From contig NC_043017.1 of assembly GCF_006345805.1 (NCBI RefSeq), positions 12,834,001 through 12,898,000 on the forward strand: a DNA stretch of 64,000 nucleotides, read 5' to 3'. Below, piece after piece: positions 29,801 to 32,800 of this stretch; position 1 is the first letter of the stretch; each line of letters starts with the position of its first letter. Made by a program: the position numbers. The DNA comes from Octopus sinensis (lineage: Eukaryota).

Positions 29801-32800
29801 ACGTTCACATTGACCCGCATCTTTCCAACTGGTTTGGAGTACCTAATTCATGGATTTCTTTCTACCATGGATATCTACCGTGGATTTCTACCTCACTTTG
29901 TTCATTCAGAGTACACCATTCCTGCACCTTTGATTACATATATATATATATAATGATAAATCTCAGAGCGAGTTATAAACAGTAGCGGTAACACATCGTG
30001 ACACATATTTGCCATTTGAATATGGCTAACCCATAAGGGTGGATGCTACTGTAGTTTGTAGCCCCAGGAAGATATCTCCTCCAGCTGGCTATAGACACAC
30101 TATCTGTGTCCTCTCAGTATATGTATTTGTGAAGGGATCTGACTTCTCGTCGACAACCATGATTGTCACACGCTGATGAAAGGTAAACACCTTGAAACTC
30201 GGGTACGTGTGTATCATGTGTTGAAGACGGGGAGGATGACTCCCCTTCACAAATACTGAGAGGACACAGATAGTGTGTCTATAGCCAGCTGGAGGAGATA
30301 TCTTCCTGGGGCTACAAACTACAGTAGCATCCACCCTTATGGGTTAGCCATATTCAAATGGCAAATATGCGTCACGATGTGTTACCGCTACTGTTTATAA
30401 CTCGCTCTGAGATTTATCATTGTTTGATTTCACTTTTTCAATATCAGTGTCAATCGACACTGGAAAAAGTATATGTATTTGTGAAGGGATCTGACTTCTC
30501 GTCGACAACCATGATTGTCACACGCTGATGAAAGGTAAACACCTTGAAACTCGGGTACGTGTGTATCATGTGTTGGAGATGGGGAGGATGACTCCCCTTC
30601 ACAAATACTGAGAGGACACAGATAGTGTGTCTATAGCCAGCTGGAGGAGATATCTTCCTGGGGCTACAAACTACAGTAGCATCCACCCTTATGGGTTAGC
30701 CATATTCAAATGGCAAATATGCGTATATATATATATATATATAGATACATACAAATATACATTCACACATACACACACATACGTGTATATATAAATATTT
30801 TGTAGTACTATGGTCTTCAATAAATACTCTCTGGAGAGCAGTGAACTGGTGTGGGGGTGGGTCTTTGAGACCAATGCCAAGTCTGTGTGTGTATGTGCAT
30901 GTATGTGTGTGTGCATGCGGGTGTGTATTTTTTCACACTGAGTGTCCAGTCTTTTGACTTTTGTTGTTTTTTGTTTCATTTTTGATTTGCCCATATACAT
31001 ACATACATACATACATACATACATAAATACATACATATGTGCATGCATACATACATATATTGTGATTACTTTGGGTATCACTGACCTTCTGTGCCTTCTT
31101 TGTTCTTTGATATCAAAGCCAAGAATGTCTATGTATGTATGTATGTATGTATGTATGTATGTATGTAGGCGCAGGAGTGGCTGTGTGGTAAGTAGCTTGC
31201 TAACCAACGACATGGTTCCTGGTTCAGTTCCACTGCATGGCATCTTGGGCAAGTGTCTTCTGCTTTAGCCCCGGGCCAACCAATGCCTTGTGAGTGGATT
31301 TGGTAGACGGAAACTGAAAGAAGCCTGTCATATATATGTATATATGTATATATATGTGTGCGTGTGTGTTTGTGTGTCTGTGTTTGTCCCCCCAGCATTG
31401 CTTGACAACCGATGCTGGTGTGTTTATGTCCCCGTCACTTAGCGGTTCGGCAAAAGAGACCGATAGAATAAGTACTGGGCTTACAAAGAATAAGTCCCGG
31501 GGTCGATTTGCTCGACTAAAGGCGGTGCTCCAGCATGGCCGCAGTCAAATGACTGAAACAAGTAAAAAACAAAACAAAAAAAAGAAGTATGTATGAATGT
31601 ATTCTTAAAATTTTGTGGCTGTTGTTGTTGTTGTTGCTAACATTACTTTTTCTCAGTATAATTTCTTTCATCTTTCTAGGGAATTTCCAAAGGAATTTTT
31701 TATGACCAGCTTCATAGATATATGCTGTTGTTTTTTTTTTATATATATATATTTTCTTTATTCTTGTTTTGAAAAGTAAATTAGTAAATAAATTAGTAAA
31801 GACATGATTTCTAGCAACATATTTCAGGGTGTTTTTTAAAAGAGGTTTCTTAGTCTCAGTGCACCATTGTACAGGGTCCACATTGAAAACTACTGGTGAA
31901 AATACAATTTTTCATGGCCCCTAGAAAATTATTGTGGACCCCCAATTTACTGCATTTCATCCGTGAACCTCCAGAAATTTTGTATGGACCCCAGTTGAGA
32001 ATCCCTGATGTAAAGTATACTGACCGAATTTTACTCCCAAAGATGATGCAATGGTACAAAACGAGAAAAAATAACAAGAAACCAGAAATTGACCCAGTTA
32101 CCAATTTTGCCCCACTTCCATTGAGTAATTCCATGTGTTTGACAGAATGATGAAAAATATGTGAAAAAAGAATGCTTTTAGCTGTTGAGAGATGTTGTTT
32201 TACTCTTTTACTCTTTTACTTGTTTCAGTCATTTGACTGCGGCCATGCTGGAGCACCGCCTTTTAGTCGAGCAAATCGACCCCGGGACTTATTCTTTGTA
32301 AGCCCAGTACTTATTCTATCGGTCTCTTTTGCCGAACCGCTAAGTAACGGGGACGTAAACACACCAGCATCGGTTGTCAAGCAATGCTAGGGGGACAAAC
32401 ACAGACACACACAAACACATACACACACACATATATATATATATACAAATATACAACAGGCTTCTTTCAGTTTCTGTCAACCAAATCCACTCACAAGGCA
32501 TTGGTCAGCCCGGGGCTATAGCAGAAGACACTTGCCCAAGATGCCATGCAGTGGGACTGAACCCAGAACCATGTGGTTGGTTAGCAAGCTACTTACCACT
32601 CAGCCACTCCTGTAAATAAAACTAAATTCAAAAGTTTTCTTTATTTACTTGCTTCATAGAATAAGAACAGTTTGGAAATAGAGATGTGTGTGTGTGCCAA
32701 GGTCAAGCTCAGTCAAGCATTGAAAGAAAGAATTTGAGACAATAACATTTTTTCTATCAATCTCTTTATACATTCATGTTTACACACACAAACACACATA

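What the first reader, a model, noticed from the sequence alone, without database searches (positions are those of the whole stretch)
29952..30724. Retrozyme-like element: 352-nt tandem unit, each with an intact hammerhead ribozyme, predicted to release a small self-cleaved or circular RNA
Seen in sequence: two identical canonical type-I HHRs (30167-30211 and 30519-30563) exactly 352 nt apart in a direct repeat, an inverted 169-bp partial copy upstream, (TA)n on both sides and no coding capacity. Established knowledge: tandem HHR-bearing units of a few hundred nt define non-LTR retrozymes, which produce circRNAs in several metazoans. Minimal HHRs with a palindromic stem III and inverted partial terminal copies are hallmarks of Penelope-like elements. 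Inference: a + strand transcript would cleave after 30205 and 30557, possibly via a dimeric HHR, to give a 352-nt monomer that can circularise and be copied by a Penelope RT. The near-identity of the copies suggests recent activity. I am not aware of such a family being characterised in cephalopods, but I cannot verify that.
Basis: partly seen in the sequence, partly recalled or inferred. Interest (0 to 1): 0.9.

Follow-up and report, generated by a model that had tools for sequence, protein, structure and literature searches.

The report
Hammerhead-ribozyme tandem retroelement in a TA microsatellite
A 773-base non-coding insert in a TA microsatellite carries two identical hammerhead ribozyme motifs 352 bases apart and is laid out like a Penelope-type retrotransposon insertion, so it is most likely a new example of the known animal "retrozyme" class of small self-cleaving, possibly circular, RNA elements.

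Summary
A 257-nt direct repeat lies at 30116-30372 and 30468-30724 (99% identical, period 352). A 169-173-nt inverted copy lies at 29952-30120/30124. (TA)n flanks both ends, and the longest ATG ORF inside is 56 aa.

Each unit has a complete type-I hammerhead core with a 6-bp helix I, a 4-5-bp helix II, and a 2-bp helix III closed by a tetraloop. My descriptors found nothing like it in 200 dinucleotide shuffles. No Rfam hammerhead model matched it, even at E<=10, and its 10.1-11.1 pair is A-U rather than the usual G-C.

Folding predicts an unstable monomeric helix III and a double-hammerhead dimer. The 352-nt cleavage product is very stably folded, with z about -8.

The layout matches published Penelope-like element insertions: a partial tandem, an inverted 5'-truncated copy and a microsatellite target. 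The window holds no RT or GIY-YIG ORF.

Best reading: a young insertion of a non-autonomous, Penelope-mobilised non-LTR retrozyme. That makes it a new member of a known kind.

Self-cleavage, circular RNA, genomic copy number and the source organism all remain untested.

The parts
29938..29952 (.). Left flank, (AT)n microsatellite. The last A (29952) could belong to either the repeat or the element.
   Evidence: Read directly.
29952..30120 (-). Inverted, 5'-truncated copy of the unit (169 nt), the reverse complement of 30253-30421. Its 3' end, in element sense, abuts the left (TA)n.
   Evidence: Inverted repeat I1 (173 nt ungapped, 99%); MAFFT alignment. There is one difference from the direct copies: A at 30003, corresponding to T instead of C at unit position 30370, a CpG site.
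30116..30120 (.). AGTAT, a 5-nt overlap shared by the end of the inverted copy and the start of direct copy 1. It is the reverse complement of ATACT at 30253-30257, which lies in the last 4 bp of, and just 3' to, the long hairpin stem.
   Evidence: sequence; stem positions from the dot-bracket structures.
30116..30467 (+). Direct copy 1, one full 352-nt unit.
30468..30724 (+). Direct copy 2, a partial unit of 257 nt (0.73 unit). It ends at unit position 30372, against the right (TA)n.
   Evidence: There are two differences from copy 1: 30224 A vs 30576 G, and 30228 C vs 30580 T.
30167..30211 (+). Hammerhead motif 1 (type I). Helix I 30167-72/30206-11; core CUGAUGA 30173-79; helix II 30180-93; GAAA 30194-97; helix III segment ACUCGGGU 30197-30204; predicted cleavage between A30205 and C30206.
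   Evidence: descriptor scans and shuffles; energies. No Rfam match.
30519..30563 (+). Hammerhead motif 2, identical to motif 1. Predicted cleavage between A30557 and C30558.
30206..30557 (+). Predicted 352-nt product of double self-cleavage (GC 42.6%). A long imperfect stem that extends helix I closes a multibranched fold and holds the two ends together.
   Evidence: circular MFE -127.7 kcal/mol against -84.7 +/- 5.2 for 200 shuffles, z = -8.2; linear MFE -132.7, z = -8.13, with 0 of 100 shuffles folding as well.
30724..30743 (.). Right flank, (TA)10 microsatellite. T30724 could belong to either the repeat or the element.
   Evidence: Read directly.

Best explanation
The 773-bp block at 29952-30724 is one insertion of a small, non-coding, hammerhead-bearing retroelement with a 352-nt unit. 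In published terms it is a metazoan non-LTR retrozyme, that is, a non-autonomous derivative or passenger of Penelope-like elements (PLEs).

Shown by the sequence:
- The block has 1.73 head-to-tail units plus a 169-nt inverted, 5'-truncated copy upstream.
- Both outer ends are element 3' sides, and both abut a (TA)n tract.
- Each unit carries a complete type-I hammerhead core.
- The unit has no ORF.

Inferred mechanism:
1. A plus-strand transcript spanning two or more units folds so that the two weak helix III segments (ACUCGGGU, self-complementary with G-U pairs) pair with each other. This forms a double hammerhead, which cleaves after A30205 and A30557.
2. [quoted passage not shown]
3. In the monomer the core is instead sequestered (CUGA 30173-76 pairs with UCGG 30199-202), which would protect the circle from re-cleavage.
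4. A PLE reverse transcriptase/GIY-YIG endonuclease acting in trans nicks a (TA)n target and copies a circular or multimeric template for more than one unit.
5. The inverted copy arises in one of two ways. Either a second priming event occurs on the other strand, or the first cDNA snaps back on the element's own hairpin, joining at the 5-nt AGTAT/ATACT overlap.

The two outer ends lie at different unit positions (30421 and 30372, 49 nt apart). That fits a template with no fixed 3' end, or the 'tail' extension described for PLE insertions.
For: Anatomy.

Hammerhead: the core is complete and the pairs flanking it (C1.1-G2.1, A10.1-U11.1, A15.1-U16.1) are all formed. This meets the acceptance rule given by Perreault et al. 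2011 (passage). There were 0 strict hits in 200 shuffles and 0 dimer-type hits in 200 shuffles.

Architecture: helix lengths of 6/4-5/2 bp with a tetraloop equal the 'canonical metazoan type I' of Cervera & de la Pena 2014.

Dimer prediction:
- Helix III as a hairpin is +2.9 kcal/mol, whereas its 8-bp self-duplex is -8.9.
- Cofolding two 62-nt segments gives the double-hammerhead topology as the MFE (-42.3, against 2 x -19.4 for separate monomers).
- The monomeric hammerhead fold is -12.6, against a monomer MFE of -19.4.

Unit RNA: z = -8.2 and -8.1, and GC is 42.6%. Cervera & de la Pena 2020 (passages) and de la Pena et al. 2020 (passages) describe retrozymes as tandem repeats of about 150-450 bp with GC below 50% and no LTR, PBS or PPT, giving highly self-paired circRNAs.

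PLE-type insertion: partial tandems, an adjacent inverted 5'-truncated copy, a 30-40-bp tail and a (TA)n bias are described in Craig et al. 2021 (passages). A PLE origin of retrozymes is argued by Li et al. 2026 (abstract and sections 14 and 16).

No coding: no ORF over 56 aa lies in the element.

Copy differences: 3 in 426 compared positions. Two are CpG-to-TpG changes, and the one in a stem keeps a G-U pair.
Against: - No Rfam hammerhead model matches at gathering score or at E<=10.
- The 10.1-11.1 pair is A-U, whereas G-C is called highly conserved and the most conserved pair after 15.1-16.1. Catalytic rate could therefore be low.
- Only 1.73 units are present, and there is no second copy of the unit in the 64-kb window. 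Family status and copy number are unknown.
- In the full tandem transcript the forced dimeric helix III lies 4.8 kcal/mol above the MFE.
- No PLE RT or GIY-YIG ORF is in the window. Pfam found none in 10 ORFs or in 99 of 219 stop-to-stop ORFs of >=75 aa (the other 120 were dropped as low-complexity).
- No RNA data exist, and the organism is unverified.
- The tandem could have arisen by DNA-level duplication rather than by reverse transcription of a circle.
Confidence: 0.65

Rival explanations
1. It is an inert relic. The block was left by Penelope-type insertion machinery (a terminal-repeat remnant or internally deleted PLE), but its hammerhead is too weak to cleave, or the locus is not transcribed, so no unit-length or circular RNA is made today.
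For: Rfam models do not recognise the motif. The 10.1-11.1 pair is A-U rather than the conserved G-C. Cervera & de la Pena 2014 report low in-vitro activity for PLE-associated hammerheads. No other copy is in the window.
Against: The tandem period is 352 nt with no ORF between the repeats, so this locus is not the end of an ORF-bearing element. Both ribozyme copies are intact and identical. The architecture is the canonical retrozyme type, not the minimal PLE type. The unit RNA is far more structured than chance.
Confidence: 0.2
2. The tandem arose by DNA-level amplification. A single 5'-truncated hammerhead-bearing insertion was later partly duplicated by unequal crossing-over or replication slippage (satellite birth), with no circular or multimeric RNA template involved.
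For: Li et al. 2026 propose local amplification of PLE termini into tandem repeats (section 16). The locus sits among unstable microsatellites.
Against: Both outer ends of the block abut the same (TA)n tract, and both are 3' sides of the element. This is what one retro-insertion event gives. The copies differ at only 2 of 257 positions. A duplication would also have to end exactly at the microsatellite.
Confidence: 0.1
3. It is a foldback or MITE-like DNA transposon with long terminal inverted repeats (29952-30421 is a 470-bp near-palindrome). It inserted at TA, a partial duplication lies beside it, and the hammerhead-like motif is fortuitous.
For: blastn aligns 29952-30421 to its own reverse complement at 87% over 486 columns. 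The arms are 173 nt and 99% identical. There is TA-rich sequence on the left.
Against: The right end of the palindrome (30421) is followed by unit sequence, not by TA or a target duplication. The model does not explain copy 2 ending at the (TA)n. A complete hammerhead with a self-complementary helix III was found in 0 of 200 shuffles. The centre of the palindrome is the element's own RNA hairpin.
Confidence: 0.05

Closest known systems
Metazoan non-LTR retrozymes (Cervera & de la Pena 2020, NAR; characterised in a coral, a mussel and the axolotl)
   Same: A tandem unit of a few hundred bp (352 here; the axolotl has 330 and 350). One canonical type-I hammerhead per unit. GC below 50% (42.6%). 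No ORF. A highly self-paired unit RNA. A weak helix III of 2 bp plus a tetraloop, predicted to need a dimer; the same helix III is described for the axolotl HHR_Amex2, which also has a weakened base of helix II (passages).
   Different: Only 1.73 units at one locus were seen here, and expression and circularity are untested. The 10.1-11.1 pair is A-U. An adjacent inverted 5'-truncated copy and a (TA)n target are visible here; I did not see these described for retrozymes in the passages I read. No sequence comparison with published retrozymes was possible.
Penelope-like elements (Penelope/Poseidon, Neptune, Nematis, Naiad clades) and their non-autonomous derivatives
   Same: The insertion anatomy matches: a partial tandem (pseudo-LTR), an inverted 5'-truncated copy immediately upstream, an extension of a few tens of bp at one end, and a microsatellite target with (TA)n bias (Craig et al. 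2021). A hammerhead lies in the repeated part.
   Different: There is no RT or GIY-YIG ORF in the element or the window. The hammerhead is not the minimal PLE type described (helix II 7-8 bp, helix I 4-5 bp, no helix III).
Newt/salamander satellite 2 and Schistosoma Sm-alpha hammerhead repeats
   Same: [quoted passage not shown] The amphibian ones cleave efficiently only as double hammerheads because helix III is short (passages).
   Different: Those are large arrays of thousands of copies with demonstrated cleavage. This is a single short locus with no experimental data.

Membership tests
Hammerhead ribozyme, type I | Conserved core C3 U4 G5 A6 N7 G8 A9 / G12 A13 A14 / A15.1-U16.1 / H17 | tested here: met
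   CUGAUGA 30173-79, GAAA 30194-97, U30204, A30205; recovered by both descriptor scans.
Hammerhead ribozyme, type I | Three helices around the core, helix I open-ended, and the pairs next to the core formed | tested here: met
   Helix I 6 bp, helix II 4-5 bp, helix III 2 bp plus tetraloop. The pairs 1.1-2.1 C-G, 10.1-11.1 A-U and 15.1-16.1 A-U are formed. This meets the rule quoted from Perreault 2011.
Hammerhead ribozyme, type I | G10.1-C11.1 base pair (highly conserved, not absolute) | tested here: not met
   A30180-U30193. Conservation is stated. Natural U-U exceptions are reported.
Hammerhead ribozyme, type I | Match to the Rfam hammerhead covariance models | tested here: not met
   No hammerhead hit at gathering score or at E<=10 on 901 nt and 101 nt.
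Hammerhead ribozyme, type I | Loop 1 - loop 2 tertiary contacts | not testable with these tools
   An internal loop (UGU / U) follows the 6-bp helix I, and loop 2 is 4-6 nt. Whether they interact cannot be computed here.
Hammerhead ribozyme, type I | Site-specific self-cleavage | not testable with these tools
   Thermodynamic prediction only: the double hammerhead is the cofold MFE.
Metazoan non-LTR retrozyme | Head-to-tail repeats of about 150-450 bp, each with a type-I hammerhead | tested here: met
   Period 352, 1.73 units, two hammerheads. This is the minimum possible array.
Metazoan non-LTR retrozyme | Non-coding and low GC | tested here: met
   The longest internal ATG ORF is 56 aa. GC is 42.6%.
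Metazoan non-LTR retrozyme | No LTR, PBS or PPT | not tested
   I did not search for PBS or PPT motifs, and I did not test for LTRs beyond noting the short tandem structure.
Metazoan non-LTR retrozyme | Stable, highly self-paired unit RNA | tested here: met
   z = -8.2 (200 shuffles) and z = -8.13 (0 of 100 shuffles as stable).
Metazoan non-LTR retrozyme | Dispersed multi-copy family in the genome | not testable with these tools
   No eukaryotic genome collection is available. No further copy is in the 64-kb window.
Metazoan non-LTR retrozyme | Expressed as linear and circular unit-length RNA | not testable with these tools
   No transcript data.
Penelope-like element (autonomous) | ORF with RT and GIY-YIG endonuclease | tested here: not met
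   Pfam gave no RT or GIY-YIG hit in 10 ORFs or in 99 of 219 ORFs of >=75 aa. No ORF over 56 aa lies in the element.
Penelope-like element (autonomous) | Insertion anatomy: pseudo-LTR partial tandem, inverted 5'-truncated copy upstream, microsatellite target | tested here: met
   compared with the Craig 2021 passages.
Penelope-like element (autonomous) | Minimal hammerhead (long helix II, short helix I, no helix III) in the repeats | tested here: not met
   Helix lengths are 6/4-5/2 bp.

The most novel reading that the evidence does not exclude
It would use a hammerhead variant (A10.1-U11.1) that the Rfam models miss. Its insertion anatomy would show that retrozymes are integrated by Penelope-type machinery from a circular or multimeric template, because the two 3' ends lie 49 nt apart on the unit. 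It would also show that the puzzling inverted copies of Penelope-type insertions arise by snap-back of the cDNA on the element's own ribozyme hairpin, given the 5-nt AGTAT/ATACT junction at the base of that hairpin.
Probability: 0.2. Interest if true: 0.55.

Novelty: new member of a known kind. Interest (0 to 1): 0.35.

Why it matters
Retrozymes are the only known genome-encoded circular RNAs with self-cleaving ribozymes in animals. How they are mobilised is still argued from co-occurrence and sequence similarity with Penelope-like elements.

This locus combines a canonical retrozyme-type hammerhead and unit with a textbook Penelope-type insertion layout in a (TA)n target. That gives a small but direct structural link between the two.

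If the family is active, it offers a tractable case for three things:
- testing dimer-dependent cleavage with an unusual A10.1-U11.1 pair;
- testing circular-template reverse transcription;
- explaining where inverted copies in Penelope-type insertions come from.

It also shows that standard Rfam annotation can miss such ribozymes.

Otherwise it is an ordinary repeat-element insertion with no evident effect on host genes.

Tried and rejected
1. Rfam. The whole window at gathering score gave 0 matches. Region 29900-30800 at E<=10 gave 19 matches, none a hammerhead; they were mostly microRNA models hitting the (TA)n/(CA)n flank, and MIR9481 at 21 bits merely reflects the long hairpin. Region 30140-30240 gave 0 matches. 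Region 28960-29070, around the third motif, gave only a 15-bit SNORA12 fragment.

2. Tandem Repeats Finder did not list the 352-nt period.

3. blastn of the element against the window found only the self, direct and inverted matches, with no further copy.

4. Pfam gave no reverse transcriptase, endonuclease or other convincing domain in 10 ORFs or in 99 ORFs. Those 99 were the ones kept from 219 stop-to-stop ORFs of >=75 aa after I dropped 120 as low-complexity. Decayed fragments shorter than 75 aa would be missed.

5. I aligned the two hammerhead families with MAFFT to build a covariance model. The alignment put the cores out of register, so I built no model and made no covariation claim.

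6. A literature search for natural or tested A10.1 variants returned 2 unrelated papers.

7. Literature searches for the element in cephalopods:
- 'hammerhead ribozyme' + octopus: 5 papers hold the terms, 4 listed.
- Penelope-like + hammerhead + cephalopod: 2 hold, 1 listed.
- retrozyme + cephalopod: 2 hold, 1 listed.
- retrozyme + octopus: 3 hold, 2 listed.
The only relevant paper is Craig et al. 2021. In the passages I read, it says of cephalopods only that Naiad elements are old remnants. I did not open PMC10886601. Two cephalopod repeat papers mention Penelope elements but contain neither 'hammerhead' nor 'ribozyme'.

8. Not done:
- No copy-number or PLE-terminus comparison in the source genome. 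The only genome collection open is bacterial and archaeal, so I did not use it.
- The phage, plasmid and E. coli collections were not searched, as they are irrelevant here.
- The organism of the window was not established by any search.
- The foldback/MITE reading and the chance-motif reading were considered and rejected, for the reasons given under rival explanations.
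Full report
OBSERVATION

Reading 29500-31200 and the repeat finder confirm every element of the finding.
- A 257-nt direct repeat lies at 30116-30372 and 30468-30724, 99% identical, with start-to-start spacing 352.
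- An inverted repeat pairs 29952-30124 with 30249-30421 (173 nt ungapped, 99%).
- After resolving a 4-nt offset, the inverted copy is 29952-30120, exactly the reverse complement of 30253-30421.
- The block is bounded by an (AT)n run at 29938-29952 and by (TA)10 at 30724-30743.
- blastn of the block against the whole window finds only these self-matches. No other copy exists in the 64 kb.
- Six ATG ORFs of >=30 aa overlap the block. The longest inside it is 56 aa.
- Tandem Repeats Finder did not report the 352-nt period, presumably because only 1.73 units are present.

THE RIBOZYME MOTIF

On the + strand, each unit reads as follows:
- helix I, 5' strand, 30167-30172
- CUGAUGA, 30173-30179
- a hairpin, 30180-30193: four pairs (A-U, A-U, G-C, G-C) plus a possible fifth U-A
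- GAAA, 30194-30197
- C, the loop UCGG, G, U, then A30205
- helix I, 3' strand, 30206-30211

All invariant hammerhead positions are present, and the three pairs adjacent to the core are formed. This meets the acceptance rule quoted from Perreault et al. 2011 (passage). The second copy (cleavage after 30557) is identical.

Chance was tested with two descriptors of my own.
- The loose version gave a mean of 0.03 hits per dinucleotide-shuffled window.
- The strict version (helix I>=6, II>=4, III>=2) gave 0 hits in 200 shuffles.
- A descriptor that instead demands a fully self-complementary helix III segment also gave 0 hits in 200 shuffles.

No Rfam hammerhead model matched at gathering score or at E<=10 on 901 nt or 101 nt.

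One concrete deviation is the 10.1-11.1 pair, which is A-U. Cervera & de la Pena 2014 call G10.1-C11.1 highly conserved. Perreault et al. call it the most conserved pair after 15.1-16.1, while noting active U-U exceptions. The axolotl HHR_Amex2 also has a U-U there. I cannot say how much this costs in rate, and my search for A10.1 data found nothing useful.

WHICH KIND OF HAMMERHEAD

Cervera & de la Pena 2014 (text parts 1-2) distinguish two kinds.
- Canonical metazoan type-I motifs have helix I of 6 bp, helix II of 4 bp, and helix III of 1-2 bp capped by a small palindromic loop.
- The minimal motifs of Penelope-like elements have helix II of 7-8 bp, helix I of 4-5 bp, and no helix III.

The motif here is the canonical kind, which Cervera & de la Pena 2020 place in non-LTR retrozymes.

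PREDICTED BEHAVIOUR OF THE RNA

From:
- Helix III as a hairpin is unstable (+2.9 kcal/mol).
- The 8-nt segment ACUCGGGU pairs with a second copy of itself over all 8 positions (-8.9).
- Cofolding two 62-nt ribozyme segments returns the double-hammerhead topology as the minimum-energy structure (-42.3, against 2 x -19.4 for separate monomers).
- The monomeric hammerhead fold (-12.6) loses to an alternative (-19.4) in which core CUGA 30173-76 pairs with UCGG 30199-202.
- In the full 609-nt tandem transcript, the forced dimeric helix III costs 4.8 kcal/mol over the MFE (-243.3 vs -248.1).

This is the behaviour described for newt and axolotl repeats, which cleave as dimers.

The 352-nt double-cleavage product (30206-30557, GC 42.6%) is exceptionally structured.
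- The circular MFE is -127.7, against -84.7 +/- 5.2 for 200 shuffles, z = -8.2.
- The linear MFE is -132.7, z = -8.13, with 0 of 100 shuffles as stable.
- A long imperfect stem extends helix I and brings the two ends together.

All of this is prediction. No cleavage or circle has been shown.

INSERTION ANATOMY

In element sense, the left outer end is unit position 30421 and the right outer end is unit position 30372. Both 3' sides face outward into the same (TA)n tract, and the 5' sides meet in the middle. The direct part is 609-610 nt, or 1.73 units, so its template was longer than one unit.

Craig et al. 2021 (passages) describe exactly this for Penelope-like elements:
- strong 5' truncation
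- partial tandems
- an inverted 5'-truncated copy immediately upstream
- a 30-40-bp extension at one end
- a microsatellite bias, with (TA)n named for Naiads and a zinc-finger linker of Neptune/Nematis/Naiad endonucleases suggested to recognise (TA)n

The 49-nt difference between the two outer ends can be read in two ways. It may be that 'tail', or it may be evidence that the template had no fixed 3' end (a circle or a multimer). I cannot separate these readings.

The junction between the inverted and direct parts is a 5-nt overlap, AGTAT at 30116-30120. It is the reverse complement of ATACT at 30253-30257, which lies in the last 4 bp of, and just 3' to, the long stem (30243-30256 pairs with 30123-30136). 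Two routes fit:
- A minus-strand cDNA ending opposite 30116 could fold back on this hairpin and prime on itself, which would generate the inverted copy.
- Two cDNAs primed on opposite strands could have joined at this microhomology.

Both routes are inference.

AGE

The three copies differ at 3 of 426 compared positions.
- 30224 A vs 30576 G, in an unpaired bulge.
- 30228 C vs 30580 T, a CpG site in a stem; the change keeps a G-U pair.
- Unit position 30370 C vs T in the inverted copy, also a CpG site.

Two CpG-to-TpG changes look like post-insertion decay.

The window may be from an octopus, which no call of mine shows. If so, and if the scale in the O. vulgaris repeat paper applies (Jukes-Cantor 0.065 at about 18 My and 0.2 at about 56 My; passage), the insertion is on the order of a million years old. 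With three substitutions this is only an order of magnitude.

AUTONOMOUS PARTNER

Pfam found no reverse transcriptase or GIY-YIG domain in 10 long ORFs. It also found none in 99 ORFs, the ones kept from 219 stop-to-stop ORFs of >=75 aa after 120 were dropped as low-complexity. So nothing in the window could mobilise the element in cis.

Penelope elements are reported as abundant and recently active in octopus (30 families and 329 recent insertions in O. vulgaris). That satisfies the co-occurrence argument, but only if the organism attribution is right.

COMPARISON AND NOVELTY

The element works like a metazoan non-LTR retrozyme and passes every defining feature I could test. Cervera & de la Pena 2020 say such elements occur 'from molluscs to arthropods'. 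Li et al. 2026 argue, for vertebrates, that they are non-autonomous derivatives of Penelope-like elements.

It fails membership of autonomous Penelope-like elements (no ORF, wrong hammerhead type) but shares their insertion anatomy.

My four literature searches found no description of a hammerhead or retrozyme in a cephalopod, but supplements were closed. I therefore rate it a new member of a known kind. Interest is modest, for three reasons: a clean single-locus link between a retrozyme-type unit and Penelope-type integration, a hammerhead variant invisible to Rfam, and a junction that hints at how the inverted copies arise.

A SECOND MOTIF

Both descriptor scans also found a different hammerhead-like motif on the minus strand at 29036-28994 (core 29032-28998).
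- Its core box is CUGAAGA.
- Helix II is 5 bp, starting with U-A.
- The helix III segment ACGAUUGU is again fully self-complementary.
- Helix I is only 4 bp.
- It sits in a 213-nt AU-rich stretch between two (TA)n/(CA)n tracts.
- It has no other copy in the window, no tandem or inverted partner other than microsatellite matches, no unusual fold (z = +0.53) and no Rfam match.

It may be a solitary 5'-truncated insertion of another hammerhead-bearing family. This is weaker evidence than for the main element.

Noticed in passing
window 28994-29036, minus strand: A second, unrelated hammerhead-like motif: CUGAAGA core, 5-bp helix II, self-complementary helix III segment, and a helix I of only 4 bp. 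It lies in a 213-nt AU-rich stretch (28906-29118) between (TA)n/(CA)n tracts. No such hit occurred in 200 shuffles with the dimer-type descriptor. It has no Rfam match, no notable fold and no other copy in the window.
   Followed up: partly
window 29404-29792: A near-palindrome just upstream of the element, with arms 29433-29578 / 29623-29768 (146 nt, 90% complementary, 44-nt spacer). The arms are related at 70-74% to dispersed copies at 4647-4790, 8036-8200 and 51416-51586. It therefore looks like two inverted copies of a dispersed repeat.
   Followed up: partly
window 4589-5101, 10454-11236, 18671-19158, 19285-19719, 26242-26667, 30689-31264, 43640-44050, 54130-54741: The ORF listing shows the same short peptide-like strings recurring in many places. 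This indicates a high-copy SINE-like repeat, and one copy lies about 450 bp downstream of the element. From memory it resembles the abundant octopus SINE, but no call tested that.
   Followed up: no
window 39816-40181 (+) and 59897-60442 (+): Two ORFs whose translations look to me, from recall only, like C-terminal pieces of LINE ORF2 proteins. Pfam gave no significant family for either.
   Followed up: partly
window 15092-15842, 17910-18794, 19916-20368, 26242-26971, 48943-49713, 53368-54293: Long low-complexity tracts that read as homopolymeric or few-residue ORFs in several frames on both strands. The window is also dense in (TA)n, (CA)n and tetranucleotide microsatellites.
   Followed up: no
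window 30712-30778, minus strand: A sub-threshold Rfam match to mir-297 (49 bits against a gathering score of 90), plus several other microRNA models, on the (TA)n/(CA)n flank. I take this for a low-complexity artefact.
   Followed up: no
window 30434-30438: A run of five T lies on the + strand inside each full unit. From general knowledge this would tend to stop RNA polymerase III, so multimeric + strand transcripts would more likely come from polymerase II or from read-through.
   Followed up: no
window 55949-56048: A run of 100 N.
   Followed up: no
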